A stretch of 64,000 nt of DNA from Azolla caroliniana. Taxonomy: Eukaryota; Plantae; Polypodiophyta. The DNA lies in the NCBI GenBank assembly GCA_043228905.1, contig JBHGNT010000027.1, forward strand, positions 248,001-312,000, given 5' to 3'. The notes beneath the pieces were generated by a model. That model did no database searches. It had not been told where the DNA came from and saw only the letters and a list, made by a program, of their open reading frames with translations. Each line of letters begins with the position of its first letter. Position 1 is the stretch's first letter. Made by a program: the position numbers and the translations under genes. This document shows positions 1 to 53,211 of the stretch, in pieces.

Positions 1-246
1 AAGGGAAGGGAAGGGAAGGGAAGGGAAGGGAAGGGATCGGCCACAAACCGATTCGGTAAGTCCACAATCACATGAAGACAACCCCAATGAGCAATCCCCC
101 GTAGACCATCATTCAATGCTGCAGCCAACAGCGCCCACCACAACAAATGGGTCAGTCTGAGTCTATACGCCGCAAACAAACAAACAAACAAAGGACAGGC
201 GGGAAGCAGCAAAAAGAATGATTCTAAAATAATAAAGTTATTTCTA

Positions 247-2029
247 ATGTGTAATGATGTTATTTACAGATTATACACAAATAAAATGTATTATAATAAA
301 TTACTGCATTTATTAACAGGTAATGTAGAACCACAAAAATTCTTTAATTGTTGATTTGAGATATCATTTGGTATCGACTGGGGCTACAGCTGTTATCATG
401 CATTTATTAGGTTATATAATAGTCAATTTCTTCAGATCGGATGGTAGAAGTGCTATAACTGGCGGATTCAATAAATTTTACTACATACTCGGAATAAGTA
501 GTTTCACAAGTATTATTATTGTTTCACTATATGATAATTTGAAAGCTTTTATATATAAGTATTTTTCTTTGAAAAGTCTTACTAATTACATGCGAATATA
601 TGCACAAGTTTTTGTATTAGGTGTTATAACATGGTATTTAATAGCAGCAGCTTTGAATATCAATCAATAAATGATTTAATATCTTCCTGCTATAGATATA
701 TTGTTGATTATATCACCCCATCTCAGCAGGATGCTGTCAGCATACAACAACCCAACGTAACACATGAAAATAGTAGTGCTATTATAGAAAAAGAAGAACA
801 AGAAAAAGCTGCTAACAAGGTATGCAGCGAAGAAACGACAACTGCTTCTGATATACAGTCAAAAGCAGCTGTAAAAGAAGAAGAGGAAAACAGCGTGTCG
901 TAGCTACTACTAAATCATCGGGTGATGATGCAGCAGAAACGAGCAGTACGGTATCTTCCGCATTAGAAGAAGAACAACGAAAGGCTGATCCGGGTAGTAC
1001 TGCATGCAGTAGAATCAAACGATTCAACAACTAGTAGTAGTGTACCGATACATAAAGATAAGTATTTTTGGATTACGCTACTAATACCTGTAGTAGCTGT
1101 TATAATAGCATATACATTTGGCAAACGAGGTGGTGGTGGTGATGATGATGGTCCATTACCTTCTATAAGTGATTTTAATCCATTTTGAAATATGATGAAT
1201 TGGTTTTGGTATAGACCTGGAAGACTTGATTTACCAAATGCTTGCTGCTTTGCTGCTTTGGAGGTTATAGATCCTGTAAATTCAACAGGTAGAATAATGG
1301 AAAGTATCCACCTTGCTATAGAGTATATGCGTCATAACCATGATGGCTTTTACATGGCTCTTGAATATCCCCAACATATACCACTTATTTGAAAAGGATT
1401 CTTGTATTTAACTTGTTGCATAAGATTGGTACATGAGCGTTTTTTACGTGGCGATCGACTGGATGGTCGGCCTTCAAATGAATAAATTAACACTATCGTA
1501 GATTCACTACTTAATACTAATGTTGAAAATAATAATAATAATAATAATAATTCTTATTTACCGTTATATTACTATACTAGTGCTAGTGACATAAATGCTA
1601 ATTCATCATCTAATACAAATGTAATTGATGTGAATTTTTCGAACATCCAATTGGTTTTACTGTCCAGAGATTTCCAGATCTTGGTCTCGCAAGCAAGGTT
1701 GTTTACCTTTGATACTAATGTTAATATGGTGCGTGCACAGGAGTACTAGTATTAATGAAGATCTGTTCAGTGGATTGATATCAGGGTCTGTTGAAAATAT
1801 CAGTATCAGTGATAGAACCGATGCCGAAATACAAACCGGTCTTGGTATTGATGCCGAAACACAAACCGGTCTTGGTATTGATGCCGAAACACAAACTGAT
1901 AATAATCATGCTGATCAACAAAAAAAAACTGTACAAACTGATGTTTCCCGTTTTCATTCTAGTAGTTCTTCTTCAAGAATATATTTCTCTGCTAATGATG
2001 ATGATGATGATGTTGATGACGATCTTTAA
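247..2029 (+). pseudogene. AT-rich degraded unknown ORF (hydrophobic segments, acidic low-complexity tracts, GIDAETQT repeats)
   Basis: Protein-like frames 356-670, 631-903, ~1020-1190, 1192-1740 and 1709-2029 follow each other through frameshifts; visibly more AT-rich than the flanks. Confidence 0.4.
1820..1900 (+). repeat. 30-bp tandem repeat (~2.6 copies) encoding DAETQTGLGI
   Basis: Unit gatgccgaaacacaaaccggtcttggtatt seen directly. Confidence 0.9.
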
Positions 2030-2292
2030 TATTAACACAATCTTCTGCTGCTGGGTTAAAACAATACCACCACCTGCGTGTATAAAAGAAAAATAAATAA
2101 CAATAATAATAATAAAGTGTGTAGAGAAATTGGGTCTATGGATAGAGCTGAAACGCTCGCTGTGAACCAGACATCCATAAAAGGTAAACTTCTGTTTTGT
2201 TTTACCTCAAATTCAATTAAAAGGAACTATAACTAAAGGGAGTTTAGAGGCCATATGAATCTCTTCTAGGATCAAAAATGACTTGATTGAAT

Positions 2293-5200
2293 TTAAGAGA
2301 ATTTTCCATGTTACACCAAGTTACTTACGGAAGTATGCATACACTCCAGGAACACTTCAGGGTAAACACCCATCCGAATGGGTAGGGTCGAAGGTTCAGC
2401 ATTCAGGCCGTAACATTAGTTAAGCAGAACAAAAAAAAGATTTTTCACCCTAAATGCGTAGTAAAGTGCTCTCCGAACCGAGCTGGATAGTCTCCTCTCA
2501 CTCGGCTCACTAACCTGAACTTTCATTGTTACGGCTTCAGATATTTAAACCGCACGCAATTGTTGGATGGTTCCCAGCTTTTCGTATGGGGGTTCTCATA
2601 CGGCATAAGTGACAGAGTGGTATTTGTTTCCTTCTTGCCGTAATCACCATTTGTTTGACGAAATCGTTCGTGTGCGATCCCTTTATTATTATTGCGGTCG
2701 AGTGCCGGTATGTGGTACGCCTGCGGCTCTCGGCTCCGTCACAAGCGGCGCATACGTTCCGTAAGGCGGCGCGCGCTGTTCGGCCACGATCTGATCTCCA
2801 TTGTAGTTTTCTTCATGGATCTGGCACTTGCTAGGCCTGTATTGGATCTGGTACTCAATTCCTTGACAGTGGCTTTACTACGTTCGGTCGTAGTGTGTTC
2901 ACAATTCGTACAAACGGAACGTCTGGCATCGATTGCTTCTACAAGATCACCGGGCCTCTGCCGCCCAATCTCGTATGCGATGGTCGGTGGCCGATAGGCT
3001 TTGCTCCCTCTAGGGGCCGGTCCTCGCTCGCCAGCGGTTGCGGACGCTTCGCTAATCAATCTACAGTTCGATTTAGCAGCGAGAACGAAAGCCAGTAAGT
3101 ACCGTAGTGTAAGAGAAAGATACCCTGATGATATTTTGTCGCCTGTTTCCAGCAGCAAGGTAGTGGCGATTGGGATACGCTACGAAGAATAGACGCGACT
3201 CTTGATTCTCTGAAAAGGTGGATTTTGGAAATACTTGAGGAAGTTGTTTGGATCCTTATCACAAAACCCTCATTCTTTACCTCTATTATTTTTTCACGCA
3301 CGAATTCCGTTCCCTTTCATGACCCTTTGTTCTACCACATTCCTCCCATTCCATGAACTTTTGTTTCTTTCACTCTCGGAGTAGGCGCGAAGCCAGCCAG
3401 CCTTCCCGGCTTTACAGGTTTCGACTAGGGAAGTCTTTATATCAATCAAATTTTGGTTGGGTATCTCTCGCACACTTCCTTCTATGAACCTCGGGCTGTA
3501 AGTCACTTTCGAGAGTCTGTCCAAGAAGGCCTGGCTTTCCGTGATCGATACTATCGTGCGTGTTTACCGATACCTTCTCTCATACACTAAACGGTACCAC
3601 GGAGATCTCTACGTACTTGTCTTAGACAAGTATGCTGAGACCTTCCCAGCCCCCGTGGAAGCGGCAAAGGCTGCAGGGCGAAGCAGATTGCTCTAAGAAA
3701 AGAAGGGTTCGCACCTGCGGCCTGTACAAGTCTGTCTTAGAATTATGGTATGCTAAAGGGCATAGCAGCAAGCGCCTACAGCTAGATTTGGGAATGCAAG
3801 GGGGGCGGGGCGGGGCGGGGCGGGGCGGGGCGGGGCGGGCGAGAGATCCCGCTATGCTTTCTTTGCGGCATGATACTACGGAATCAAGGCCGCAGGTCCA
3901 GCAGTATTTTCACGAAGATGCCGTCTATAGTGGTTCCCTCGAGCCCAGCCCTTGGTCGTCATTGACCTGAGATTAGGTGCTAGTTTTTCATAGGCAGCAA
4001 TCCGTCATATATCTATGTCCCATCGAAATGGTCTTTCGACCTTCGCTCGATCTCGACAGCTTAGATCCCATAAGACACGTAGTTGTTGTTCCATTGTCGT
4101 CAAAGCCTCGAGCTTTAATCCATCCGGACCTGGAGTCAATTTTCTCGTGTCATTCAAGTGTACAACGTCCATCAATGATAGTTCATTAATGTCCATTGAT
4201 TTAGACTCCTTCTCCGCCACCTTATACAAATAAGATCGATAGGGGTCGGGCCTTTCATTTGAGGGCCCCTGTTCCCTAGCCCTCACAACGAACCACCGTA
4301 CGGAAGCCTTTCGACTCGTACGGCTCGCCCTCTCAGATCTAGACCCTGGCATTACCAGTTAGGTCTTTACCCGTTGTTCTGCCACGGCGAGGCCCAGTCT
4401 AGCTTGCGTGTGGAGTGGCGTACAGATTTGTTAAGGAAATGTCCGTTGCCTTAGTAGAGAACAGTACAATCCTGGACTGGCCCTCTTTGTATTAACCGCT
4501 AAGGTCTATGTCGTCACTACGAGCGAGGCCTCTGAACTCTTCAAGGACGCCGTCAAAGAAGGGGATGATTGGCCCCGACTTTTGAAACTACTAGGTTTTC
4601 CTTTTTAGTGAGAGCTATGCGGCCCTTGCTTTTCATGCGGAAAAAAGAAGAAACCTTGCTTGGCTTGCCAAAGTAAGCTCAGCAGTCAGCCTACGGGCGC
4701 ACGGTAAGGTGTTTGGCTTTTTTTTGCCGGATCTAGAGAGATACTACGAGTCCCCCGCCCCAGATTCCCGAATCCGCGGTTATCTAGTTCGCCGGTACTA
4801 CCAAAAACTCTGATGCTTACGTTACCGAACTAGTAGTGTCAGTCCGAACGGCCGGCGGAAAACCCAGTTGTGCTTTTAGCATCGGCTCCGTATCGAAGTT
4901 GGAAACTCCCCGTGCTCTGCCATAAATGCTTGGAGTCCATATTTATTATGGTGGAGATAATGCTGTGATAGAATTGATTGCTCAATAACCTAACCGAGCG
5001 CGCGTTCGAGTCATTGGCTCGTCCAACCTCGCATTCATGAGTAACCCATTCAACTGTCTTTCGGAGACACGGTCGGAAAGTGAGGGCCGAAAGTGGCTGG
5101 CCTCGCTCTTTCCTTTCGCAACAGGCTATGTTCCCTATTTATTAAGGTAAGTTGCCTCCGTCTCATCGCGAGCACCTACAATGTTGTGATTACATTGTTT

Positions 5201-8200
5201 AGTAATACATTTACTTGGTGGTTTAACGGTCGCCTCTCCAGGAATGGAAGGTAAAAATGTTAGAACTTCTCTTCTATTCAAATCGGAGAATTTATGGAGG
5301 AATTTGGGTTTCGAATTCCCAAAAACCACACGATTATATAGCCAAAGAGGATAGGCTGCGCCTAAAATCATCCCAAGTGCCGCCGATGTGGCCACTAAGC
5401 TATTTTTTTAAGAAGCTCCCACTAGAATAGGAAATTCCCCAATGGAGCTGCTAGTGCCGGGTAAACTCATATTAGCTGGAGTAGAAAGTAATGGAATGGT
5501 GAAGAAATTTAGCATGGTGCTTGCTAGACCTCCGTAATACCTAACAGGTCGGGTCTTATATCAGTCGTATGGAGCACCAACGCATGAGAAAAGGGCTAAA
5601 AGAACCAGTCCATAACTTGACGTGGGTAAAATGCTACCTTCAATTCCCTATATGTTTGATAGAGTGAAATCTTCTCCCCGAGTACGCCGATTCCTCCCTG
5701 AACCGTACGAGGTAGTTACCTATCATACGGCTCTCTAACTCCACTTATTGGGTTGTTCTGCTTCCAATCGATGGTAGTACCTGAGATCTGTTACTGAAAT
5801 GAACCCCTTTGAACATAAAGCCGCCCGCTTTCTATTCATGGTTGGCATGTATCCTTCCGAAATCGGCACCCGTCCGCCTAAAGAGAGAAAGCGTGTAGTG
5901 CTTTCCCGGGCGGGGCCGGAGGCCCTCTGAACCGAAGGTTCTCTAGAAAACCTTTTTCCCGAGAAAAGAAAAGTGCTCCCGATGATGCGTAAGGCTGCGG
6001 ACTTACTAAATAAAGGGTCTGGAACCGGATACGATAACGGCGTATCCTGAAAGCAAGCCTCTAACTCGAATAGGATTGTGCCGTCAATGGCCTTCCCATC
6101 AGGAGGGAGAGGAGGGCCAGGTGTCCGCCTGTATTATTTTTTTTGGCTTACTCTTGGGTGGACAGTAACCTATGAACCTATGTTACATGGAAAGCCGGAC
6201 TGTGGCATGTAGTTTTATTGTTGTTACGAGGGCTGGAAACCAACCGGTTCGCACAAGTATCAATCCCATTCTGTGTGGTGGCAGACACATCCGCTAGGGG
6301 ATCCGTGGAGATTGGCTCCGCGCGCAAATGGCGGCCGGGTGAAGCCGGCGTGGAGTAAGATCTGCTGCGAGGGTCATGCAGATACATAGGCCCCTTCCCT
6401 TCCGCCGAATCGTTCAGCGCTTTCCGCCGTTCGCACGGTCCTTTAGTGGGAGTTGGGCAGGTGCTATGGGCTTCTGACTTCCAGCTACGCGCCCCTTGCA
6501 AAGCAGCGAATGGAGGCTGATAGTATTTTAAACGCGTTCAAAATACTGAAAATCTTTTTAGCGACATGAATAAAAAGAATAAATTCATTCGTGAAAGAAT
6601 GAATGAAGGGTTCGCCGCTCAGCTGAATCTCGCCGGTGTCACCTATAGGCTGCGACGCCTAGAGTTGTCGTTTGTGCACCCCACCCGTCCCCAATGAAAT
6701 GAGTAATCCACTCCCTTGCCAATTGTGGCCTTAGCACTTAGTCTCGATGGCTGGCGGGGAGTGTAACAGCTTATGTTCGCGCGTCTTCCCACGCGTACTG
6801 GACACGTGTCAGCTGTAGGAAGTATTGTTCCGGAAACGACTCCAATTCGCCAATTCAGGCTCAACTCGCTTGACGTTAGCGGACTTGCATGATACTATCG
6901 GGCAATCCGGGAAGATGGCGAGGGAAGAGAATGCGTTAAGGCTGTGAACTTTGAGTTTTCCTCTCTGAGCCCAGAGAACGCTATGCATTTTTCAGGGGCT
7001 TTAGCCACTCAACCGAAGGGAAGAGGGTAAACTGATTCTTACTCTGTAGAGCCGTGCTGCGCATTTTCGTTCGTAGAGCTAGCGAAGTCCCCTCACCTAC
7101 TCTACTCTCCTTGCCGCCTTTTGATGAGAAAAGTAGAAAATGAAACAACGCCGCCTCTAAGGCCCCGCATCCAGCACAAGTACTTCCTGCTAAATTCAAT
7201 CAAGCTGCTTCTACGACATGCTACGCTTTCTGTCCTATGGTTAGAAGGTTAATTGGTCGCACGTCCGGCATACAGGTTTTTTTTGGCCTTGCGTGTTCAT
7301 AACTTAACTATAGGTGACCTTACGGCCGCCCGACTAGACATACCAATAGTTACAAAATTCATATAGGCTACTAAAGGGTAGGCAATAATCTTTTTCAGAT
7401 CAATTTATCTTATAGTAGTCAGGAGAGTGTATATAATAGCAATCACGCTTAGAGTATAAATAAAAAGAGTAAAATAAAGTATCACTCCAGGAAACATGAG
7501 TACAGAAAATCTTAAAAAACCATAGGTTCCCAGTTTTAAAAAAATTCCTGCCAAGATTACAAATCCAGCTGTAAGTACCTCTACATGAGCTTCGGGTAAC
7601 CAAATATGAACTGGTACCATAGGCACTTTTACAGAGAAAGAAGCGAAAAAGGCGAGCCATAGCAAGATTTAGCGCCATTCACTAGACTCTGTGGTTAATA
7701 ATATATGCAAATCGATAGTTCCCGTCTGAAAGAAAATCAATAAGATAGCTAAGAGCATGAAGACAGATCCAAGCAAGGTATATAAGAGAAACTAATGTGC
7801 CGCTCATATTTTTCTTTATCTAGAACCCCATACCCCTATAATAATAAACATAAAGATTAACACGCTTTCGAAAAAAACATAAAAAAGTAAAATATCCAGC
7901 ATGCGAGACACAGCAATCGTAAAAGATTCACCAATTGAAAATGCTATTATATACTCTTTCTTAAAACTTTCGATACTGGACCAACCTACTAAAATGCAAA
8001 TGGAAACTGAAGACATGGTCGAGACTGCTAAAGATAGGAGAGTACCGTCTATACCTATGATGAAATTGATGTTTGAATGGGGAAGCCATCAAATAGTTTC
8101 CGCAAATTAAAATTTGGCTGTAGAATTATCGGATCATGTCCGAAAAACTGAAAAATACGAGAAAATCATCAAAAAAGCGCACAGACCAGTGATTCATATC

Positions 8201-8363: not shown

Positions 8364-9586
8364 AAAGGTTGGTTCTTCAACAAGTCGCAGCAATGCAATG
8401 CAATGCAATGCAATGAAGGCCTTCGCTTTGTCTCGTCGACCGCAAACAAAGCGGCGATGGGCTGGCTTTCCGCGTTTCCGTAAAGAAAATCGAAAGAACT
8501 CTGATTGATTCTTATTCGTAGTTGGGATGCAGGGATAGATTTATTTCTTCCTCGAAGAACCGTACGAACGATTAGGCCGCTGCGATTTCCACACGCAGAC
8601 ACGCGGATTCAGCATGAAGGGCGGGCGATTTATTCCCCGATCGAACGAATGAATGAATGAATGAATAGGGTGTCGTTCGCAATGACAAGGAACGTTAGCT
8701 GGAAACGCGGTCAACTAACGGGCACAAGTGCAATATTTTCATTTTGGTGTGACTCTTGGTTGGAGAAGGCCACACCACAGTTGGTCTCTTCTCCATAAGC
8801 CGGACCGCCAACGTCAAGGCGAGATCACATTGGTCCAGTCCCCGCATAGCCAGTGGAAGGGTGAGGTGCATCCACTCAGATAGCATGGGGAGGTCGAATG
8901 ACTGCGGCCACGTCAATCCGCTTCTTTTCTTTTCTTGTTGGGCCGCTAGCAATTGTCTAGCTTCTGCTACCAACTCCCCCATCGGGCCGTCTGACTTTAC
9001 CGTAGCCGATAAGTAGCGTTAATCGTCTTCATCGCGCTGATGAAGCAGCGGGTTCATCCACCACCTTGGTTCTTCCCCGCAAGCAACTTCCGCCGTATTA
9101 TCCATAGCTGTTCATCAAGAAGGCCTAGAGTTAGTTTTCCGATAAGATTCAAGCTACAATTTCAAACAGCACCTTTTCTTCATGAAGCGCAAGAAAACTG
9201 CACTGCGGAAGAAGAAGAAGCGGTAAAAAGTGTAATATAAATGGCTACCAAAGTTCTTCTTTTGAACTTTCAAGAAGGCCTGAATATTCATGGATTATTA
9301 TACGATAATCTTTAATGCGGCTCAGATTGCGGAAAGAATTGAATGCTGGAATTTCGAAATTCCGTTGGTAAAATTCAGAAGGATCATGCAAGAAGGCAAT
9401 ATCATCTTCTGGCCATAATCTGCGAATCCAGCAAAGCAAAGCAAAGCAGCACTTTTCTTTTCACTTTAAACCGAGCCGGCGGCAATCTTGATGAATCACT
9501 GGCAAGAAGATGCTTTGCACTTTTCTTTCCACTTTAAAGCAGCAATCTTTTCACTCGGAAATGGCAAAAGAGCTTGGAAGAAGAAT

Positions 9587-9657
9587 AGGCTAGGGACGGA
9601 GTCGAACCGTCATTCCAGGATTTGCAGTCCAATACATTGCCATTATGTTACCCAGCC
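9587..9657 (-). tRNA. trnC: tRNA-Cys(GCA)
   Basis: GGCTGGG acceptor stem, anticodon loop CTGCAAA, T-arm GGTTCGACTCC. Confidence 0.95.
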
Positions 9658-9863
9658 AGCAGAACGTTTTTCCCGCTTAAATGAAGAGAGGCGGGACTCT
9701 CATTTAAGGGGGGTGACCTTAGGCCACCCTTTGAAATAATCTAAAGCCTTACAATCAATTTCTGCGATGCCATAAAATGTGAACCAACGACAACGATTTT
9801 GGGCAAAATAAGAATTAGTGATTGAAAAAGACCCGCAGCTTGCTTGTGAAGCCGACCAGCGTA

Positions 9864-10014
9864 CTGCCAACACGACTTGTTTATGCCTATTAAAGAACCT
9901 TTTAATGCTAATTCACAGAAAACTATACGAAGCATACAAAATAACTAATATACGAAACGGAAGCGACCGATGGAAATACGTCAGTTTCTTACTCATGTAA
10001 ATAAACTATTTCTT
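9864..10014 (-). pseudogene. rps14: 5'-truncated rps14 copy downstream of rps1
   Basis: RIVFCELALKGSLIGINKSCW C-terminus, cut at the repeat boundary. Confidence 0.85.
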
Positions 10015-10065
10015 GCTGCTGTTGGTGCTTAGGAAGAGACTGCTGGTTAGGGGGCGGCTTTCGAT

Positions 10066-10945
10066 TCAATGGTGCTTTTTCTTTTCTGAAACTAGCGCAG
10101 CACGAATCTCTTCTTTTACCGCAATATTACGCTTTATTGGGTTCGTGTTCAGAATTCTGGATGTCCTACTTCTGCAGAATGTCTCATTTCTGCTTCTGCG
10201 AAACTTTAGACCTTTGTTTCCAAATTTCCCACTTCTGCTTTTATTCTTGTGGAACCTAAATTTTCTACTTTTGTAAAATTTCTTCTTTTTGTGGAACCTC
10301 TCACTCTCATTTTTGCGAAAGGGACTCCTGAAAAGGAAAGCCACGAACCCTGCAGTAACTGCGGCATACCCACCCTTCATTAAATTGAAAATCAACCCTT
10401 TGACCTTGTCGCGGTCACGCCAAATCTTGGTTAGTTCAATCCGAACTATTTTCTTGTTCAATGGTTTTGACAAAATAATTTCCGGTTTACGTGGTTCTGG
10501 CAAAATAATTTTTGGTTCACGAAGCTCTTCCACTTTTTCCAGATTCGAATCTTCGATCCCAACAGAATTAAACTTTGCTTACTTGGTGATTGGCGCTCTT
10601 GCTGTCACTTCATGTTTTAAAAGGATTACAGGAGTTTTCAGTCCTGTATTCACCAAGATCATATTCTGCGGGTGTAACAGTTTGATTAAACCTCTGTCCC
10701 CATCATGACTTTTGTCCCTGTATTATAATGGTTTCACTGAATATTATAGAGCGCCTTCACGTAGTAAAGTGGGACTAGAATTATACAGTTAACCTAAGCC
10801 GCACCATTACTGCTGGGGCTTGGCTCCCGAACCGTGCATGAGCTATAGGCCTCACACGGCTCTTCCCGTCATGCTGGCATCTCCTCCCCGTATTTAGCTA
10901 TGACGGAAGGCGTTTCGAGTTATGGTATGATTTCACTCCAAATTG

Positions 10946-10976
<31 letters not shown>

Positions 10977-11608
10977 TTAGGACGGTGATTTAACGCGAGT
11001 TTGAATACCTTACGTATGATTCGCTGTCATCTACGATCCAATTTGAAGAAGTTAATGGGTCCCCGTGTCAGCTCTGGAGCTTGGTGAAGAATCCTATTTC
11101 CAAGAGCATACAGCCTGGCGGGCCTTCCGTTTCCGGAGCTTCATGGGCGTTGCCCCGTTCCCCAACCAGATGCTTGGATGTGAGCTATACTCCGTAAGGG
11201 ATGCCGCGAGCGTAGATGGTCTGTCTCAGACAGAAGAGCCATCGATAACTTACTTTTCTCGGGCGTCAAGGGATGCTCAATGACAATCCCCAAGTTGTCA
11301 CTGCCTTGCTCCCTCCCGCTATTACGATAACGAGTCCCGTGGTCAGCACCGTCGATTGGGCCACGAAGCTTACACTCATTCATTGTTCGTCCTGCGCCCC
11401 GGGCCTTTTGCTTTTGCAGTTTCGAAGGTAGCCGCCCTTCCATCAAGGCCTGGGAGTCAACTGAACATCTCAGCTACTGGCGGAAAAGATCGGCGATCTC
11501 TTTTTGTCCGCTTTTGGTTGAAGTTCACGTTATTAATAGCGTGAGCCGTTTTGCAGATATTGCTTAGGGCTAACAGATCACACTGGGGAATAATTAACCA
11601 AAGCTCGT
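10066..11608 (-). CDS. rps1: ribosomal protein S1; exons 11608-11584, 10787-10066 (true stop uncertain)
   Basis: ACG start, MSFG(Q)LFP; NTGLKTPV, IELTKIWR, KGGYAAVTAG. Confidence 0.88.
10788..11583 (-). other. group II intron rps1i25
   Basis: Inserted after nt 25; GTGTG start; domain V GAGCCGTGTGAGGCCTATAGCTCATGCACGGTTC; AAC end. Confidence 0.92.
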
Positions 11609-13174
11609 TCTGCTTTCTCTTATTCTTGTTCTGTTTCTCGTTTCGAGGTCTGTTTCTAATATCTATGGGAGTTTGTGAGAGGTCCCTCAGGTGAAAGCAG
11701 CTTACATGGGAATGAAAGGGATCCTCTTAGCGGCATCTCTAGTAAGAGATGAAGCTAGGAGGTGGGCTGTCTAGTCCCTTAGCCTTCACCGAACCCATTA
11801 TGCTCAGATGCATACAAAGGCTTATGGTTCCTGGCGAACTTAACACCCGAGGCCAAACCTCGCCTCGAATGTAGGAGCTGCTATAAGTCACTTTATATAG
11901 AGACCTTCTTTCAGGGATCAAAAGGCCCCCACGACTCAAGCAGTTGGATGGTTGGATGGGGTGTTCTAAGACCTTTTTCATAGCGTCATACTACCCATAC
12001 ACGATTCCAAATCGGAATCTTTCCCGTCGCTACCGTCTTCGGTGGGTTAGGGGAGGTGGAGATCGGGCTCGGAAAAGATCCAGAACAGGGTCTCCTCTAA
12101 TCAATCCCGAACAAGTTCTCGAAGCTGTAATCTTACGTAATGTCGTGTGATCAATTCAAGAACCGCTTCTGTTCTGCGCCGATAATCTCAGGATCGCCGC
12201 ACATTGTTTCTAGTTCGGAGAGAGACACGATCGCCTCTCCTTTCTCCAAAATCGATAGATACTGCCCCCGTAACCTCAGAGGCGAATTTTGCCATATACC
12301 CAACCCTAACCATGGGAAGGTTTCAGAACTGAGCAAACCAAGGTTCCCATCCCAAGGCGGCAGAGGTAAAACACCTGCTTGCTTGCTTGCTTGCTTGCTG
12401 GGGATGTTAGAACCAACCAGTGCCGATGAACCGGTTCATCATGAAGGCCGGCCCGGCCCGGCCCGGCCCGGCCGTTTTCACGCATGAGGAGAAAGGTAGC
12501 CTTCTACCGCCCGCCGCCGAGAGAGCACCTCACGCGAAACCCGCTCCGCAACAACAAAGTCGAGCTAATTCGCCGAAGGCCTCTCGGAACTCAGAGAATC
12601 TGCAGAACAAGGGAACGGTCTGAGAAGTCACCTTAGCACTGCTGACGAGAGAGAATGATACCGAGGAAAGGAAAGGAAAGGAAAGGAAAGGAAAGGAAAC
12701 ATTTCTCCCTTTCCAGGAGAATCGGGGGGCGGGCAGATTCCAAGCTAACGACCGAGATGAAGGAAAATAAAAATGGGAAAGGGTAGTAAGTGGGAAACAG
12801 GAGGAATGGATGATGATGGAACGGTGATGTATCAGATAAGGTGGACCAGCGCTGATAGACAACGGAGAGTAGAACCTGAACCCGACTCTATCGTTGGGTA
12901 TTCGACCCCTGAACCTTTGGCCGGGTACTCATCTAATGCATTCCGAAAAATACAGTAGGAATTGGACCTACCGAGCACCGTATAGAATCGTAAAAGGAAG
13001 ACAACTAGGTGATTCGTCGAGCCCCAACCGGCCGGATCCCCTGCCCTTGATGTTATAAGCCCACCTTCAAAGCAAAGCTGGCCCGCTGAACCCCACAACG
13101 TCAGGCTTTTCAACCAGTCAAGTTTCCATTGACCTGCATTCTGCTTGGGGAAGGGCAAGGCCCATACCTTGTTG

Positions 13175-13972
13175 TCATAAGCCCCCCCACCAATAGATAG
13201 GGACAGATGGAAATGACCGAACCACGTCCACAGAATGCCGGTACCGAGCAGCTGCTTCGAAGCCGAAGTGATGCGAAGGACTAAAATGACCTATATATTA
13301 ACAAATACCGCGTATCGTCGAGAGAATGGTCCCTGTAGTAACGTAGGACCCATAAGACCCGATGGCTAAGAGGAAAGTAAAACCATAAATACCGTCGGAA
13401 ATGATGAAGAGTGCTTCGTAATATTCCATTCCCTAAAACCCGGTGGGAACTGGAGCCAGCCGAACGATAGCTACTAAAGCGTGAACCGCTTATTATTTTA
13501 AACCTGCGAGTATGGCATGATGAGCCCAAGTCACGGCAGCTCCAGAGGAAAGGAGAATAAGGGTATTTAGAAAAGGGATTCCCCAGGGATTTAAAACCTC
13601 AACTCCTTTGGGGGGCCGAATAGCTCCGATCTCTACCGCGAGTGCCAAAGATAAATAAAAGAAAGCCCAAAAAAAGGCTAGAAGAGACATAACCTCCGAG
13701 ACGATAAACAAGAGAAAACCGTAGCGAAGCCCTAATTATACCACTTTGGTATGACGTCCTTCGTAAGTAAATTCACATGTAACATCGCGCCGCCATACAA
13801 ACATGGTGTATAAGATCAAGCTTAGGCCTAAAGTGAGGAGTGTTCCGTCTCCCGCGAATGAATGCATATACATAACAGCACCGATGGTGCTTGCTAAGGC
13901 TCCGAGTAACCCCAGGAGAGACCATGGACTTGAATCCACCGGATGATAGGGATGCTCTTAGGAGACACTCGT
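13175..13972 (-). CDS. cox3: cytochrome c oxidase subunit 3
   Basis: 798 nt; ACG start MSVS(Q)EHPYH; [21 protein letters not shown]; ends IYWWGGL*. Confidence 0.95.
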
Positions 13973-14929
13973 GTTATTTATTTAATGAATTCACACGAAA
14001 CGGTTTGTACATGAAAGAGTCTTGGCTACTATAATCAATGTAAGGGAGATGAATCCTATTGCAAATACAATCGGAATGAAGAAATCCTAAAATCCAATAA
14101 TCAGTTCCACAACCGAAGAGACTTCTAGATCTTTCAGGATTTCTAGGCCACCCGAAAGATCGGGTAGTGTATTCTACGACAGATTGAGGAGCACCTGCGG
14201 GAACAACTCTTCGTTGTTATTTTAAAGAGTTGCGATGTCCTCGTGCAATTCGGTCTATAATCTTTCTAAGCTGTTTATGACTATGGGCATGTCTTATCCA
14301 ATCTGTTTCTTTTCCTCGGTGCTTTATACCTAGGGCAGTCTCCTGCATTCATGGCAGTTCCTATGGTTGCAAAAACAACAAGGAGTCGGTTCCCGTATAT
14401 ACCCGGCTTTTCTTGTATGCTTTCGGCAAGCAAAAAAAACGCTAGCGGGCCTACCACGCTTCGCGCCTGCGTCTTTGCCAGACAGTATTTGCCAGTAGTG
14501 CCATCCCACCCGACCTGAGGATTTAGTTTGTCCCTTGCTAAAATATCTTTGAAGAACTTGTACTGATTTTCCAGGTCGGTCCTCGCGAGCGGATATGGGC
14601 CCTAGAGGATGGTGTAGAAACTCTCTGCCCGTAAGTCGTGCCTGAAAGCGGTTCATCCGGGTGAAGCCGGCGGCGAGGAATTGACTGGTGCTGCGTTCAC
14701 TGCTTGCTCGAAGGCCCGTATCCGCGCAGGCAGTAAGCAACAGATTGGTTCGTAACAAAAACAGCTTAGAAAAGAAAAAGAATAAAGTTATTTCCTATTA
14801 AACTAGTGATTGTAAAGAAAAAAATCCTTCACAACGCCAAGGTATTTTAGCAAGACACTACATAAGACTTTCGCCCTGGATGATATATGGGTTCTCATGA
14901 GAAAGAATGGTCGGTTTCCTTTTAATGAA

Positions 14930-15056
14930 GTAAAATCCACACCTTGACGCCCGGAATCCCGTAACGAGTGAATGTTTATTAGGAACCGAACTGATGGGCT
15001 TTCCCTAAAGTAACACCAAAAGTCTACCTCCTTTCGTGCGTCCTTCGCCTCCTCCT
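14930..15056 (-). pseudogene. adjacent fragments of rpl2 3' ([11 protein letters not shown]) and rps3 3' ([13 protein letters not shown]); mirror at 49764-49890
   Basis: Near-identical to ~33893-33952 and ~29998-30036. Confidence 0.8.
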
Positions 15057-16314
15057 AAATAAATTCACTTTCTCTAAAGTAGCCCAATGGATTGTTAACA
15101 AGTTCTACGATATACTTATCTTCAAGCCAACCAAGTACTTTAGCACCTTATTGCATACATGTTCGAACTCAACTCCAGGTCGCGTATAATCACTCTCATT
15201 GCAATCAACCATGGCTACTCCAATATTAATTAATTTTGGCTTTCTTTCTATAAACTTTCGTTCCAGCCAGGGAAACGGTGAAGGATAGTGATTTACGGCA
15301 TGACTGTACAGTTTAGCCGTCACCACTTGTAATTTGAGTCGATAGCCAAACACGGATTATGCCCTCTACGCAGACAGAGAACCGCCCAACCTAGCTGCGC
15401 AAATTGCTTGCTTGCTTGCTTGCTTGCTTGCCCCCTTCTTGCGGATGCGGAAGAACTTGCTTGCTGCTAAGTTTTATTAGCGCAGGTGAAGGCCTTTCCG
15501 CTGTCTGTGAGGCGGATAACGGGCAATCTCACTCATTGCGCTGTTTTATTGACTTCGCCACGGCACCACTTTTTTGGCGGATAAACGGCCTTCATGCTGC
15601 CGTTAGTCGAGGCGGCCCGATGAACCAGTGCAGCAGAAAAGAATTTCGGTTATAGAATGGCCGGTCTCTTTCACTTGCTTCTGATCAAAGGCCGGCAGAG
15701 AAGTAGCCGTACAGATAGCATAGGCTGCGGCCTATTCTTGCAGAGAAAACAACTTCGAGAATGATAACCCGTAGGTACCGGTGGGTTCGATCAGTCCCTG
15801 GAGTTCGCTAGGTGATATCTATACGGCAAGGAGGATATGAAGCTATCCCTACGGAATCCAATCCCTGTGGTCCTAGATCGGTCCCGAAGCACTAGTCCGG
15901 TACCTGCTGCAATCAGTCCCTATGGTACTTGCTGCAACCAGTCCCGAACCCAAAGGTTTGCTACGCTGCCGCTGTAGGCATAGTTGGTACCGATGTTCAC
16001 TGAGATTGGGAATCCCCGCTTCGTGCTGATCGTATCGTATTCTCTTCGCTTATTGCAGCTGTGGTAATCGAGGCTTTGCTTTGTATTCTCGAAGTACGAA
16101 CGCTAGCTGATCGCTTCGTATCCTTTCAACCGTTGAGGAGCTGCAACTGCTTGGCGTTGTCTATGGCCATGATTGTATCGCGGTTGGTTCGGGCGGGAAT
16201 CAATCAAATCGCCACTTTTCACGCGCCCGCCGGTTCATCCCGGAGGAACCGCACAGGAGTAATTCAGACTGTTTCTCTAGTCAATTTCGCGTGACCGTAA
16301 GACGCAATTCTGCA

Positions 16315-16386
16315 AGCGGAAAAAGGGACTCGAACCCTCAACTCCAGCCTTGGCAAGGCTATACTCTACCATTAAGCTATTTCCGC
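16315..16386 (-). tRNA. trnG: tRNA-Gly(GCC)
   Basis: GCGGAAA...TTTCCGC cloverleaf, anticodon loop TTGCCAA. Confidence 0.95.
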
Positions 16387-17129
16387 CAGCGGAACCAGAG
16401 CCGAGTGCGGTTCTTCCCCCGTAGAGAAAGCGCTATAGCTTTCGGGGGAAGAACCGCAATGAAGACTTCATTGCGGTTCCCTTGGAACTATTGACTTGAG
16501 ACTTCGATGACTCATCGATAGGTCCATGCCCGGAGAGATTCGAACTATCCCGGATTCGAAGTTTGGTGCTCGAGCTACAGGCACAAGTTGACCTTACAGA
16601 CCGAACAGAGGCTAGTAAAATCTAACGCTTAGCTTAGAAGGTCGTAAGATCAGACCAGACTTCGCCCGGAAAACGAACGTAAAGCATTGAAAGAGCGTTG
16701 CTTAGTGGCTGGCTTTGGCCGCCTTTACGACCCAAAGACGAATCTCCGGGTCCCAGCTTATTATCCTGCAATGTTACGGATTGACTGTTACTGGTGCTAG
16801 GTAAGGAGTTTCAGTTTTGGGCGTCACTTTCGAAATATCTCGAGTAATGGGTTCATGTGAGTGCATGAACAATCCAACTACTCTACTAGGCTGCTTCCCG
16901 CCCTGTTTCGCAGCTTGCTCCCCTTCGGCGGCACGGCACGGCACGGCACGGCACGGCACGGCACGGCACGCACGCACCTGTCTTCCCGCATTCCGTCCGC
17001 TGAGCGCAAAGCGTCGACAAAGAAAGCAGCTACCTTTTCATTATTATACTGTAATCCCAGCGCAAACAAAAAAACTGCCATGAATATCGAGAACGGAACA
17101 AGAAGCCACAACGAAATCAAGTCAAGTCT

Positions 17130-17364
17130 ACGGAAGCTTAATCCGTTTGTTCTTCGTAAACAATTGGATACAAAGTCAGTACTAACCCATAAGGCTCTGT
17201 TTCAGATTCAAAACTAGGGTTCAGCTATGAGATTTGACTCTAGGTCACGCCTTCGGTTTGTGTTTTCCGCTTGAAACATAATATCACTCGTTGTACCGGA
17301 ACGGATCCCTGAAAAGTTACTTAATCCGCTGTTAGCGTCAAAAATTGTAAACCCCCTGAAGTTC
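17130..17364 (+). pseudogene. rpl6: 3'-truncated rpl6 copy at the IR boundary
   Basis: Identical to the rpl6 5' part up to CKPPEV, then unrelated sequence. Confidence 0.85.
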
Positions 17365-29951: not shown

Positions 29952-32337
29952 CCGAATTGAGTCCCTTCTTGTTCTTTGAAACATGTTTGGAATACAGAAT
30001 CCACACCTTGACGCCCGGGATCCCATAACGAGTGAATATTTCTGCTCTTGCGTAATCAATATAATCAGAAGATACATGTAAGGATATTGAACCATATTTC
30101 ATACATTCAGTTTGAGCTATTTCTGCACCATTCGATCAACCTGGACGACAAATACAGATTCCCTTCACACATTCGCAGTTTTCAATCTATTAGAATATGG
30201 ATGTACAAATTTATACAAATGATTTCTTTTTTTCTGGTCCCCAAGGTATCTCCTAAGCTATTGGAAAAGCACTTTAATGGAAAAAATCAGCTCTTACTGG
30301 CTTAATCGGGATATTAGTGCTTGTTTCACTAGATGAAAAAAGTTACATTTCAGGCCACCAAGGTTTAATCTTCTTCCGGCAACGATGACTGCATACTTTC
30401 TTAGTTCCTCTGAATCAGGCGTTCACTATGTGCGAGCGTCAGCGGGCATCTCCTCCTGAAGAAGAGTGACTATTGCACGGATCCTTCTCTCTGGGTTTCG
30501 TACATTCACGTCAGGCATCCTTATTATAGTGGTACCGACAGCACAGATTTCTTGCTTTCTCACGTAAGGCATTCCCTATATACAGACACAGTTTCCTCTC
30601 TGCAAACCTACCCCGAGCATTCCTCATTTTCTCAGAGCGTCGGGCGGCATCCCTACTATAGGAAAAGGATAACAGAGAGGGAGAGAGAAGCAAAAGATTG
30701 TCATCAGTTATGTTAACCGTAGTGGGGTCAGAATGAATTTAGTTCTTCATACGAAGAAAGTGTTGCACGACCAGAGGCATAATAGGTGCGGTTGCCAAGG
30801 GGCGGCGAGAGTTTTCGGAGGCCTTCTCGCCGCGGTTTTCCCCTAGTAATCCTCCCTCTTCTCTCCTTTTTCATATCGCCCTGCGGTCCGTGAGATAGAG
30901 TCGAGAGTCCACTTGCGCCTAGTAAGAGGGTTCATGCGGGCTCCGCATGAATGAACCGCTTCATCGGCTTGACGAGGGCAAAGCACAGGAAAGGCAGATG
31001 GGCATTTCCTATGTCCCATCCCCCTCTCGTAACTAGTGCAGGCTACACAAGTGCTCTCCGAACCGGGCTGGATAGTCACCCATCACACGGCTCTCTAACT
31101 TGACGGGTGAAAGGCCGAGTGGGAACCCCGGAAATTACCCCTTTCCCCTTCGGCTCTCAGAGCGTGACAAGTGCATAGGCTCCTTCCCGTTTTCTACTTG
31201 GCATTCACCAAGTGCCGGTTCCGCCTTAGGAGGGTAGGCAGGTGGTATGGGCCCTCTGACTTCTTTCCGGGGCTTTCCTCCCATAAGATCTCGCCGTTGT
31301 TTCCTACATGGCTTGTCCAATTGTTGATCGAACGCCCTGTGTTGGGATGTCATTTAGTGTTTTGTCCCCAGTAACATGGGTAACCTGCTCTATCCTTTCC
31401 TTTCCCTTCTGTGCAATGGGTGGGTCGAGGGAAGATCATTCGGCCCAATTAATCAAAACCCTCAGTAGGCATAGAGCGAGGCAGCGTGCGTTCGCGCTCC
31501 CCATTCGCCGAAATTAAGTGCCAATGGTTAGCTGTCGCCGGGTAGCCAGCCCCGAACTTCGATTCGCCAAGCTTTGCCCTCATCTTAATACCGAAAGCAG
31601 GCTCGCTCTATGCTGTTGAGTTACCCGTAGACTTTTTGGTTCAAAATACGGGCGGGCCTTCGTTCGTTCCGCCAACAAACAAGTTCTTCGAACTTTAACC
31701 TCCTTGCCGCACATGCTTTGGTCCTCGCGTTCGTTACCGAGCAAGAGTAAGTGCAACGCCTTTGTACAGTACATAATTGAGCGCACGCAATTTTTCATGC
31801 AGGAACTAGACCGGCCGCCCTCTCGATTAGCGTCATCAACAATATCATCAACCAAAAAATAATAGTAAGCATCATTGAACTAGAAAGAAGAATACATGAA
31901 TGAATGTCCTTTTAGGGAAATGATGAATGATACACCTACCAAGGCGAAGGTCAACTTTGCGATTTCTTCCTCTAGTTTTCCTCTTTCTTCCCCCAATTTT
32001 ATCTTTCCCTCCTTTAGTTTTCTTTTTCTTTTCCTCGGACAAAATCCTGGGAAAAATTGAACGGAAAAAATATCTAAAATCTACATCCTAATACAACAAT
32101 TTTCCATAACAGTAAATGGAGTCAAGAGTTACTCTGTCTGGCTGTGGGAAAAGCAGCCGAAAGAAGCCAGCCGTGTGAAGGGCTGGCTTCCATTCACCAG
32201 CCAGCGCGGACTAAATCAAGTGCTCTTCGAACCGTGCAAGATGGTTGCCCATCACACAGCTCTTCAACCCAAGTTGCCTATATCGTGCGTTGCGTGGTGG
32301 ATCCCAAGTCTTTCAAGCAAGAAGCGCTTGATCCTCT

Positions 32338-47390: not shown

Positions 47391-47690
47391 TTGTTTCTTT
47401 TCTCCTTGTTTTCTACGTATAATTTCATTTCAATATTTTATACCTCTTCCTTTATGAACTTCAGGGGGTTTACAATTTTTGACGCTAACAGCGGATTAAG
47501 TAACTTTTCAGGGATCCGTTCCGGTACAACGAGTGATATTATGTTTCAAGCGGAAAACACAAACCGAAGGCGTGACCTAGAGTCAAATCTCATAGCTGAA
47601 CCCTAGTTTTGAATCTGAAACAGAGCCTTATGGGTTAGTACTGACTTTGTATCCAATTGTTTACGAAGAACAAACGGATTAAGCTTCCGT
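47391..47690 (-). CDS. rpl6: ribosomal protein L6
   Basis: ACG start MEA; GYKVSTNP(Q)GS; KLGFS; CKPPEVHKGRGI; QGEKK followed by CAA (edited stop); rpl6-rps13-rps11 order. Confidence 0.88.
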
Positions 47691-47721
47691 AGACTTGACT
47701 TGATTTCGTTGTGGCTTCTTG

Positions 47722-47747
47722 TTCCGTTCTCGATATTCATGGCAGTT
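47722..47747 (-). promoter_or_regulatory. conserved 5' leader motif upstream of rpl6
   Basis: AACTGCCATGAATATCGAGAACGGAA, 57 nt before the ACG. Confidence 0.55.
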
Positions 47748-48433
47748 TTTTTGTTTGCGCTGGGATTACAGTATAATAATGAAAAGGTAGCTGCTTTCTT
47801 TGTCGACGCTTTGCGCTCAGCGGACGGAATGCGGGAAGACAGGTGCGTGCGTGCCGTGCCGTGCCGTGCCGTGCCGTGCCGTGCCGTGCCGCCGAAGGGG
47901 AGCAAGCTGCGAAACAGGGCGGGAAGCAGCCTAGTAGAGTAGTTGGATTGTTCATGCACTCACATGAACCCATTACTCGAGATATTTCGAAAGTGACGCC
48001 CAAAACTGAAACTCCTTACCTAGCACCAGTAACAGTCAATCCGTAACATTGCAGGATAATAAGCTGGGACCCGGAGATTCGTCTTTGGGTCGTAAAGGCG
48101 GCCAAAGCCAGCCACTAAGCAACGCTCTTTCAATGCTTTACGTTCGTTTTCCGGGCGAAGTCTGGTCTGATCTTACGACCTTCTAAGCTAAGCGTTAGAT
48201 TTTACTAGCCTCTGTTCGGTCTGTAAGGTCAACTTGTGCCTGTAGCTCGAGCACCAAACTTCGAATCCGGGATAGTTCGAATCTCTCCGGGCATGGACCT
48301 ATCGATGAGTCATCGAAGTCTCAAGTCAATAGTTCCAAGGGAACCGCAATGAAGTCTTCATTGCGGTTCTTCCCCCGAAAGCTATAGCGCTTTCTCTACG
48401 GGGGAAGAACCGCACTCGGCTCTGGTTCCGCTG

Positions 48434-48505
48434 GCGGAAATAGCTTAATGGTAGAGTATAGCCTTGCCAAGGCTGGAGTTGAGGGTTCGAGTCCCTTTTT
48501 CCGCT
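48434..48505 (+). tRNA. trnG: tRNA-Gly(GCC), IR copy
   Basis: Mirror of 16315-16386. Confidence 0.95.
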
Positions 48506-50529
48506 TGCAGAATTGCGTCTTACGGTCACGCGAAATTGACTAGAGAAACAGTCTGAATTACTCCTGTGCGGTTCCTCCGGGATGAACCGGCGGGCGCGTG
48601 AAAAGTGGCGATTTGATTGATTCCCGCCCGAACCAACCGCGATACAATCATGGCCATAGACAACGCCAAGCAGTTGCAGCTCCTCAACGGTTGAAAGGAT
48701 ACGAAGCGATCAGCTAGCGTTCGTACTTCGAGAATACAAAGCAAAGCCTCGATTACCACAGCTGCAATAAGCGAAGAGAATACGATACGATCAGCACGAA
48801 GCGGGGATTCCCAATCTCAGTGAACATCGGTACCAACTATGCCTACAGCGGCAGCGTAGCAAACCTTTGGGTTCGGGACTGGTTGCAGCAAGTACCATAG
48901 GGACTGATTGCAGCAGGTACCGGACTAGTGCTTCGGGACCGATCTAGGACCACAGGGATTGGATTCCGTAGGGATAGCTTCATATCCTCCTTGCCGTATA
49001 GATATCACCTAGCGAACTCCAGGGACTGATCGAACCCACCGGTACCTACGGGTTATCATTCTCGAAGTTGTTTTCTCTGCAAGAATAGGCCGCAGCCTAT
49101 GCTATCTGTACGGCTACTTCTCTGCCGGCCTTTGATCAGAAGCAAGTGAAAGAGACCGGCCATTCTATAACCGAAATTCTTTTCTGCTGCACTGGTTCAT
49201 CGGGCCGCCTCGACTAACGGCAGCATGAAGGCCGTTTATCCGCCAAAAAAGTGGTGCCGTGGCGAAGTCAATAAAACAGCGCAATGAGTGAGATTGCCCG
49301 TTATCCGCCTCACAGACAGCGGAAAGGCCTTCACCTGCGCTAATAAAACTTAGCAGCAAGCAAGTTCTTCCGCATCCGCAAGAAGGGGGCAAGCAAGCAA
49401 GCAAGCAAGCAAGCAATTTGCGCAGCTAGGTTGGGCGGTTCTCTGTCTGCGTAGAGGGCATAATCCGTGTTTGGCTATCGACTCAAATTACAAGTGGTGA
49501 CGGCTAAACTGTACAGTCATGCCGTAAATCACTATCCTTCACCGTTTCCCTGGCTGGAACGAAAGTTTATAGAAAGAAAGCCAAAATTAATTAATATTGG
49601 AGTAGCCATGGTTGATTGCAATGAGAGTGATTATACGCGACCTGGAGTTGAGTTCGAACATGTATGCAATAAGGTGCTAAAGTACTTGGTTGGCTTGAAG
49701 ATAAGTATATCGTAGAACTTGTTAACAATCCATTGGGCTACTTTAGAGAAAGTGAATTTATTTAGGAGGAGGCGAAGGACGCACGAAAGGAGGTAGACTT
49801 TTGGTGTTACTTTAGGGAAAGCCCATCAGTTCGGTTCCTAATAAACATTCACTCGTTACGGGATTCCGGGCGTCAAGGTGTGGATTTTACTTCATTAAAA
49901 GGAAACCGACCATTCTTTCTCATGAGAACCCATATATCATCCAGGGCGAAAGTCTTATGTAGTGTCTTGCTAAAATACCTTGGCGTTGTGAAGGATTTTT
50001 TTCTTTACAATCACTAGTTTAATAGGAAATAACTTTATTCTTTTTCTTTTCTAAGCTGTTTTTGTTACGAACCAATCTGTTGCTTACTGCCTGCGCGGAT
50101 ACGGGCCTTCGAGCAAGCAGTGAACGCAGCACCAGTCAATTCCTCGCCGCCGGCTTCACCCGGATGAACCGCTTTCAGGCACGACTTACGGGCAGAGAGT
50201 TTCTACACCATCCTCTAGGGCCCATATCCGCTCGCGAGGACCGACCTGGAAAATCAGTACAAGTTCTTCAAAGATATTTTAGCAAGGGACAAACTAAATC
50301 CTCAGGTCGGGTGGGATGGCACTACTGGCAAATACTGTCTGGCAAAGACGCAGGCGCGAAGCGTGGTAGGCCCGCTAGCGTTTTTTTTGCTTGCCGAAAG
50401 CATACAAGAAAAGCCGGGTATATACGGGAACCGACTCCTTGTTGTTTTTGCAACCATAGGAACTGCCATGAATGCAGGAGACTGCCCTAGGTATAAAGCA
50501 CCGAGGAAAAGAAACAGATTGGATAAGAC

Positions 50530-50847
50530 ATGCCCATAGTCATAAACAGCTTAGAAAGATTATAGACCGAATTGCACGAGGACATCGCAACTCTTTAAAA
50601 TAACAACGAAGAGTTGTTCCCGCAGGTGCTCCTCAATCTGTCGTAGAATACACTACCCGATCTTTCGGGTGGCCTAGAAATCCTGAAAGATCTAGAAGTC
50701 TCTTCGGTTGTGGAACTGATTATTGGATTTTAGGATTTCTTCATTCCGATTGTATTTGCAATAGGATTCATCTCCCTTACATTGATTATAGTAGCCAAGA
50801 CTCTTTCATGTACAAACCGTTTCGTGTGAATTCATTAAATAAATAAC
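50530..50847 (+). CDS. putative editing-dependent ORF (106 codons) in frame with cox3; mirror at 13973-14290 (-)
   Basis: ATG lies 69 nt after an atp1-type leader; amphipathic N-part and one hydrophobic helix; six stop codons would need U-to-C editing. Confidence 0.35.
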
Positions 50848-51645
50848 ACGAGTGTCTCCTAAGAGCATCCCTATCATCCGGTGGATTCAAGTCCATGGTC
50901 TCTCCTGGGGTTACTCGGAGCCTTAGCAAGCACCATCGGTGCTGTTATGTATATGCATTCATTCGCGGGAGACGGAACACTCCTCACTTTAGGCCTAAGC
51001 TTGATCTTATACACCATGTTTGTATGGCGGCGCGATGTTACATGTGAATTTACTTACGAAGGACGTCATACCAAAGTGGTATAATTAGGGCTTCGCTACG
51101 GTTTTCTCTTGTTTATCGTCTCGGAGGTTATGTCTCTTCTAGCCTTTTTTTGGGCTTTCTTTTATTTATCTTTGGCACTCGCGGTAGAGATCGGAGCTAT
51201 TCGGCCCCCCAAAGGAGTTGAGGTTTTAAATCCCTGGGGAATCCCTTTTCTAAATACCCTTATTCTCCTTTCCTCTGGAGCTGCCGTGACTTGGGCTCAT
51301 CATGCCATACTCGCAGGTTTAAAATAATAAGCGGTTCACGCTTTAGTAGCTATCGTTCGGCTGGCTCCAGTTCCCACCGGGTTTTAGGGAATGGAATATT
51401 ACGAAGCACTCTTCATCATTTCCGACGGTATTTATGGTTTTACTTTCCTCTTAGCCATCGGGTCTTATGGGTCCTACGTTACTACAGGGACCATTCTCTC
51501 GACGATACGCGGTATTTGTTAATATATAGGTCATTTTAGTCCTTCGCATCACTTCGGCTTCGAAGCAGCTGCTCGGTACCGGCATTCTGTGGACGTGGTT
51601 CGGTCATTTCCATCTGTCCCTATCTATTGGTGGGGGGGCTTATGA
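50848..51645 (+). CDS. cox3: cytochrome c oxidase subunit 3 (IR copy)
   Basis: Mirror of 13175-13972. Confidence 0.95.
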
Positions 51646-53172: not shown

Positions 53173-53211
53173 CTCGAAACGAGAAACAGAACAAGAATAA
53201 GAGAAAGCAGA

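What the first reader, a model, noticed from the sequence alone, without database searches (positions are those of the whole stretch)
4239..4702. Group II intron nested in nad4i1399 (twintron, probably a 'zombie')
Seen: the host intron contains a second set of intron ends (GTGCG at 4702, domain V-like at ~4290-4327, domain VI ending CCCTAT at 4239). It is inserted ~40 nt after the host domain III-like GGGGGACTCGTAGTA and just ahead of the maturase relic. Its domain V has a GGT duplication and a CC bulge instead of AY, suggesting loss of catalysis. Knowledge: functional and degenerate twintrons are described from lycophyte and hornwort mitochondria; I do not know of one in nad4i1399.
Basis: partly seen in the sequence, partly recalled or inferred. 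Interest (0 to 1): 0.75.

Follow-up and report, generated by a model that had tools for sequence, protein, structure and literature searches.

The report
Ancient dead intron inside nad4 intron
A complete but damaged self-splicing intron sits inside the third intron of a fern mitochondrial nad4 gene, is likely no longer cut out on its own, and its eroded remains lie at the same spot in flowering plants, so it likely predates the split between ferns and seed plants.

Summary
Confirmed. A 464-nt group II intron (4702-4239, minus strand; GTGCG to CCCTAT, domains I-VI in order, almost no domain IV) lies in domain IV of fern mitochondrial nad4i1399 (5235-2382, splice junction seen in RNA). It is likely a zombie: no exon-binding match in domain I, 3 extra bases in domain V, a 6-nt domain V-VI linker, and edited RNA contigs that keep it. 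The CC bulge is not diagnostic; atp1i361 in this window has it too. New here: the element is old. It is in 9 of 9 close relatives and in 28 of 28 informative translated orthologues, 11 of which lost the branch adenosine. A legume contig and sesame and asparagus translations keep colinear remains of its 5' hairpin, domains II/III, V and 3' end. No empty site and no donor intron were found, and rare internal splicing is not excluded. My searches found no report of a twintron in nad4i1399; described plant cases are lycophyte and hornwort. The scan had no earlier finding on this sequence, only a similar kind in an algal nad4 intron.

The parts
2382..5235 (-). Host group II intron nad4i1399 (2854 nt; starts AGGCG, ends CCCTAC)
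   Evidence: 3 raw RNA reads join 5236 to 2380 with one edited base between; Rfam hit 2424-2510
5236..5658 (-). nad4 exon 3, heavily RNA-edited
   Evidence: C-to-U and U-to-C differences in RNA runs; frame
2293..2381 (-). nad4 exon 4
   Evidence: Splice joint; reading frame to TAA read
4742..5235 (-). Host domains I-III (assignment by recalled consensus motifs)
   Evidence: Sequence; 87% identity of 4825-4722 to legume contig L011; no Rfam match
4703..4708 (-). Putative IBS1 (CTTACC) of the internal intron
   Evidence: Position only; no full complement in internal domain I
4239..4702 (-). Internal group II intron, 464 nt, ORF-less (would be nad4i1399g2ii533g2 in window numbering)
4392..4698 (-). 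Internal domain I; hairpin Ia at 4694-4673
   Evidence: Closing stem and Ia in sub-fold; Ia homologous and in exact register in L011 with pair-keeping transitions
4342..4387 (-). Internal domains II (4387-4371) and III (4365-4342)
   Evidence: DIII fold -11.4 kcal/mol; DII paired by eye; colinear patch in sesame and asparagus translations
4333..4341 (-). Minimal internal domain IV, no ORF
   Evidence: Sequence; two substitutions in fern contigs X17 and X20 make it a cleaner hairpin
4290..4326 (-). Internal domain V: AGC triad, GAAA loop, CC bulge, 3 extra bases in the 3' strand
4239..4283 (-). Internal domain VI with branch A at 4246 (position -8), 6-nt linker from DV, two mismatches beside the branch A in my hand pairing
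   Evidence: Sequence; branch A changed to G in X17 and lost in 11 of 28 translated orthologues
3602..4232 (-). Likely maturase relic of the host (RT0-like 4232-4116, RT2-like 3760-3602), frameshifted
   Evidence: Weak colinear tblastn and HMM patches, best E 0.021; no library hit
2382..2508 (-). Host domains V and VI

Best explanation
The segment is a complete ORF-less group II intron lying in domain IV of nad4i1399, which likely reverse-spliced into the host before ferns and seed plants diverged and is now likely dead, leaving the transcript as a passenger when the host intron splices. Shown: both ends, the domain order, host splicing, retention in RNA contigs, presence in diverged orthologues. 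Inferred: it landed at the start of the host maturase frame, so it probably had to splice first while the maturase was in use; once the maturase decayed, internal splicing was dispensable, domain V and the linker took lesions in a common fern ancestor, and lineages then eroded it separately (branch A lost in some ferns, GTGCG lost in legumes, internal deletions in other angiosperm-type records). Domain IV loops out of the ribozyme core (established knowledge), so the host tolerates it.
For: Ends and domains. Host splices: 3 reads. Contigs of 2 rRNA-depleted RNA runs (one study) carry exon-3 edits and run through both internal junctions at word depth 236 and 168, and no internal joint is listed in any of 4 runs. 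No 6/6 complement of CTTACC anywhere in the element; 5/6 matches only outside the expected region. All 7 other domain V hairpins lack the 3 extra bases. Change density in 6 close relatives is 6.5 events/kb, like the rest of the intron (5.6-7.5). 28 of 28 informative translations run into the internal 3' end; 11 of 28 lack the branch A; X17 shows the branch A changed at DNA level. Legume contig L011 keeps hairpin Ia in exact register, 20 of 25 identical (6 of 2000 shuffles). Colinear chains for 5 angiosperm-type translations beat all shuffles and all 24 control stretches. X19 contig has 667 letters between the flanks where an empty site would give 32.
Against: No empty-site orthologue and no donor paralogue were found, so the insertion is inferred from anatomy. 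Raw-read depth in the element was only about 2-6, a joint needs 3 reads to be listed, and contigs drop rare forms, so low-level splicing is not excluded. The RNA runs are from relatives with small indels, not the window's own strain. Whole-element folding is not better than shuffles. The 5 proteins were picked after inspection from 66; single patches score at chance level; only 7 of 66 gave a Ia match at E<0.01 and 3 of 66 hold the 3' junction. Only 2 of the 5 carry a species name. The AGC triad, GAAA loop, branch A and both ends are intact in the window.
Confidence: 0.8

Rival explanations
1. Functional or leaky serial twintron: the internal intron still splices in this fern, helped by RNA editing and nuclear factors, before or alongside the host.
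For: Intact ends, triad, tetraloop and branch A; DV and DVI invariant in 9 of 9 close relatives; the genome edits intron RNA, e.g. at 5712 in nad4i976 domain V; low raw-read depth.
Against: Majority RNA path keeps it in 2 runs; the 7 differences of the X15 contig include no C/U edit inside the element; no EBS1 match; 3 extra bases in DV and a 6-nt linker; no intact maturase to restore; relatives lose the branch A.
Confidence: 0.1
2. Co-opted element: splicing is dead but parts (hairpin Ia, DII/III, 3' end) now serve the host as a protein-binding or folding element, which would explain their long survival.
For: Recognisable remains in ferns and angiosperms; pair-keeping changes in hairpin Ia between the fern and the legume contig; position at the start of domain IV, where maturases bind in IIA introns (recalled).
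Against: No lower change density than the rest of the intron in close relatives; different lineages delete different parts; slow plant mtDNA change also preserves the flanking maturase relic.
Confidence: 0.15
3. Not an insertion into nad4i1399 itself: the composite arose earlier in an F01 ancestor and was copied to nad4 whole, or the fern and angiosperm copies are linked by horizontal transfer.
Against: Angiosperm remains are deeply diverged and sit in orthologous host flanks, which argues against recent transfer; there is no evidence either way for an older composite.
Confidence: 0.12
4. Chance GTGCG plus a duplicated domain V/VI fragment, not a whole intron.
For: Rfam score below threshold; no domain I-IV Rfam match; z -0.75.
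Against: The 5' end pairs with the base of domain I about 300 nt away, DIII folds in the right place, and no similar DV/DVI source lies in the window.
Confidence: 0.04

Closest known systems
Zombie twintrons cox1i1149g2-twin and sdh3i349g2-twin (Lycopodiaceae) and atp1i1050g2-twin (hornworts); Zumkeller, Gerke, Knoop 2020, PMC7049729 (read: abstract, Results, first part of Discussion, supplement passages and part 3)
   Same: ORF-less internal group II intron in a host that splices; domain IV site with a decayed maturase as in atp1i1050g2; weak EBS-IBS and damaged DV/DVI; lineage-specific erosion.
   Different: Different host (family F01); no close paralogue found; its 5' end differs by eye from the F08 and F04 starts in the supplement (the F10 alignment was not compared); traces span ferns and angiosperms, whereas those cases are confined to one family or to hornworts.
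Functional twintron atp9i87g2-twin (Lycopodiaceae), PMC7049729
   Same: Internal intron in domain IV at a maturase frame.
   Different: There the maturase is intact and internal splicing was shown; here the frame is ruined and no internal splicing was seen.
nad4i1399g2, family F01; Zumkeller and Knoop 2023, PMC10012718 (read: passages, search of 8 supplements, supplement 3 whole)
   Same: The host intron, listed for lycophytes, ferns, gymnosperms and angiosperms, closest to moss cox3i507g2.
   Different: No internal intron is named for it in the passages or supplements seen.
mat-Lepto in leptosporangiate ferns, PMC12548569 (read: passages)
   Same: A proposed former twintron in fern mitochondria.
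   Different: It concerns the rps14 intron and an intact maturase gene; nad4 is not mentioned in that text.

Membership tests
Group II intron (internal element) | 5' GUGYG and 3' AY ends | tested here: met
   GTGCG at 4702, CCCTAT at 4239
Group II intron (internal element) | Domain V with AGC triad, 2-nt bulge, GNRA loop | tested here: met
   Present, with 3 extra bases; Rfam 23.9 bits, under the cut-off of 40
Group II intron (internal element) | Domains I-VI in order around a central wheel | tested here: met
   DI stem, Ia, DIII, DV, DVI in sub-folds; DII by eye; inner DI subdomains not resolved; global z -0.75
Group II intron (internal element) | Bulged branch A in domain VI, 3-nt DV-DVI linker | tested here: inconclusive
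   A at -8 present, but linker is 6 nt and the stem has mismatches
Group II intron (internal element) | EBS1-IBS1 pairing | tested here: not met
   No full complement of CTTACC; none at 5/6 in the distal part of domain I
Twintron (broad sense) | Complete intron inside another intron that splices | tested here: met
   Host joint in 3 reads; nested order of domains
Twintron (broad sense) | Empty target site in orthologues, or donor paralogue ending at the intron ends | tested here: inconclusive
   0 of 9 loci, 0 of 28 translations, no contig with an empty site; no paralogue in the window or at mitochondrial depth in X8; lycophyte and moss sequences unavailable
Zombie twintron (Zumkeller 2020) | [quoted passage not shown] | tested here: inconclusive
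Zombie twintron (Zumkeller 2020) | Degenerate internal catalytic or recognition elements | tested here: met
Serial (functional) twintron | Internal splicing restores a needed host structure or ORF | tested here: not met
   With the element removed in silico the maturase patches lie in different frames with stops; no internal joint

The most novel reading that the evidence does not exclude
nad4i1399 is a cryptic twintron across ferns and seed plants, the oldest and most widespread in plants, hidden in the much-studied angiosperm nad4 intron 3; parts of the dead internal intron have lasted since the fern-seed plant split (roughly 400 million years, recalled) because they were co-opted as a binding or folding element for host splicing.
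Probability: 0.15. Interest if true: 0.8.

Novelty: new member of a known kind. Interest (0 to 1): 0.62.

Why it matters
Plant mitochondrial twintrons are described from lycophytes and hornworts (PMC7049729). This one extends them to ferns and, as a fossil, to flowering plants, in an intron that a systematic family survey sampled without naming an internal intron (PMC10012718). It gives a natural decay series (near-complete, branch A lost, 5' end lost, internally deleted) to test the open question in PMC7049729 of whether zombies were once functional, and a shared insertion that could mark a deep node of vascular plants.

Tried and rejected
Donor search: blastn within the window gave only 12-20 nt chance hits; plasmids nothing real; one viral-contig pattern hit, L001, was chance; two other viral scans were empty; X8 at 80% likeness gave only low-depth short pieces. 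No whole genome is held, so most of the mitogenome was not searched. The metagenome scan returned only 97-99% relatives. The L011 genome held no further piece of this intron. CC bulge as a sign of death: rejected. Extra constraint on the element: not seen. Maturase by library search: negative. BLOSUM62 domain-by-domain tests of angiosperm translations were mostly not significant; I then used nucleotide-aware scoring. A whole-window Pfam annotation was obtained only for 52001-64000. Literature: searches; passages read in PMC10027690 (plus its intron section), bioRxiv 10.1101/2022.12.23.521604 (supplements closed) and PMC8393795 name no nad4i1399 twintron; other listed papers were seen as listings only; subscription papers and theses are not covered. 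Runs X17, X19, X20 come from animal metagenomes and say nothing of habitat; their plant source is not named.

Full report
Setting. The window is plant mitochondrial DNA with abundant C-to-U and U-to-C editing in nad4. A trnC-GCA at 9587-9657 and a partial rps14 copy just upstream of it (in the repeat copy) resemble the arrangement described for Salviniales in PMC12548569, and several runs holding the stretch are labelled leaf metagenome. I infer a water fern, likely Azolla. No whole genome is held.

Observation. On the minus strand GTGCG starts at 4702 and CCCTAT ends at 4239. Rfam finds a domain V/VI match at 4328-4230 with 23.9 bits, below the family cut-off of 40. A domain-V pattern occurs 8 times in the window against 0.73 in shuffles. 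Sub-folds give a domain I closing stem, hairpin Ia, domain III, domain V and domain VI in order, with a tiny domain IV; domain names rest on recalled consensus. The full element does not fold better than shuffles. The host intron is 5235-2382, fixed by 3 raw reads. The element lies 39 nt after host domain III and just before weak, colinear RT0/RT1/RT2-like patches (best E 0.021) that no library search detects.

Is it alive? Better signs of death are 3 extra bases in domain V that none of the 7 other hairpins has, a 6-nt linker to domain VI, mismatches beside the branch A in my hand pairing, and no full complement to the upstream CTTACC. Contigs from 2 rRNA-depleted runs of one study carry exon-3 edits and pass through both internal junctions, and no internal joint is listed in 4 runs. 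This is suggestive only: raw depth was about 2-6 from about 12% of one poly(A) run, and contigs drop rare forms. In 6 near-full close relatives the element changes at 6.5 events/kb, like the rest of the intron.

Ferns. All 9 metagenome loci (97-99% identical) carry it, with DV and DVI unchanged. Spurious ORFs predicted over the 3' junction give a wider view. Of 36 such proteins, 28 reach upstream of the junction; all 28 continue into the internal 3' end, none into the host frame, and 11 have lost the branch A. The diverged ones are 82-90% identical and carry no species name; I take them to be other ferns. A diverged RNA contig (X17) spans the whole element with 54 substitutions and 61 gap letters, changes the branch A to G and deletes part of distal domain I, yet has a better domain IV hairpin and a better DVI pair than the window. 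The 3 extra bases in domain V are also readable in diverged translations, so that lesion is old.

Angiosperms. A pattern from host domain I/II found a 400-nt contig, L011, in a Mesorhizobium MAG. Its translation is 98% identical to a Vicia faba entry, so I take it as legume mitochondrial DNA. After the host flank it continues in exact register into hairpin Ia, 20 of 25 identical with only transitions, while GTGCG is eroded (6 of 2000 shuffles). Among 66 angiosperm-type translations, 7 match Ia at E<0.01 and 3 hold the 3' junction. A 324-aa Sesamum alatum entry (P0107) shows patches for the 3' junction, domain V, domains II/III and Ia in order. Chains for it and 4 others, including an Asparagus entry, beat every shuffle (0 of 120-150) and all 24 control stretches. 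These 5 were chosen after inspection, single patches are at chance level, and protein translations blur the nucleotides. A further contig (X19) has 667 letters between the conserved flanks where an empty site would leave 32. Together this points to a gain before ferns and seed plants split.

Mechanism. Most likely an ORF-less group II intron reverse-spliced into the start of the host maturase region, spliced at first, and became dispensable when the maturase decayed; it now leaves with the host lariat. The ends, nesting, host splicing, retention in majority RNA and distribution are shown; insertion, early function and present inactivity are inferred. No empty site or donor was found, so an older composite origin remains open, as do rare splicing and co-option.

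Comparison. It works like the zombie twintrons of PMC7049729, closest to hornwort atp1i1050g2-twin. The scan's earlier notes hold no look-alike sequence and only analogous cases elsewhere.

Verdict. Real, apparently undescribed, a new member of a known kind, notable for its likely age and reach into flowering plants. Interest 0.62.

Noticed in passing
window 5235-5231 (-): The host intron begins AGGCG, not G-first; fixed by the RNA joint and the same in 9 of 9 relatives.
   Followed up: partly
window 44664-44578 (-): The intron before an atp1 exon (atp1i361) has a CC bulge in domain V and shares 127 nt at 97% with the intron near 31156-31282, as expected for the known rps3i249 paralogue.
   Followed up: partly
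window 5712 (-): C-to-U editing in domain V of nad4i976 restores a base pair.
   Followed up: no
window 4434-4549: Reads in run X24, with opposite-strand depth over 4101-4673, have loose ends here; about 115 nt of internal domain I seems to exist in another context whose flanks are not in the window, perhaps a nuclear copy.
   Followed up: partly
window 4687-4722 (run X17, records 2 and 3): A second, angiosperm-like source keeps the 5' junction with only 6 differences in 36 nt, better than the legume contig.
   Followed up: no
window 8984-17364 and 47456-55836: Perfect 8381-nt inverted repeat, plus further copies around trnC; many tetranucleotide microsatellites.
   Followed up: no
window 10804, 34515 and 11101-11483: Pieces of the rpl2 intron region are duplicated next to the partial rps14 copy.
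   Followed up: no
window about 55800-60500: Broken fragments matching RNA polymerase, carboxyl transferase and ATP synthase families, likely plastid- or bacterium-derived.
   Followed up: no
window 1-2030: AT-rich stretch with several 60-130 aa open frames downstream of nad4, unlike the rest of the window.
   Followed up: no
L011 and L014 (G001): A Mesorhizobium MAG carries small contigs of legume-type mitochondrial DNA; public protein sets hold many spurious ORFs from nad4 intron 3.
   Followed up: partly
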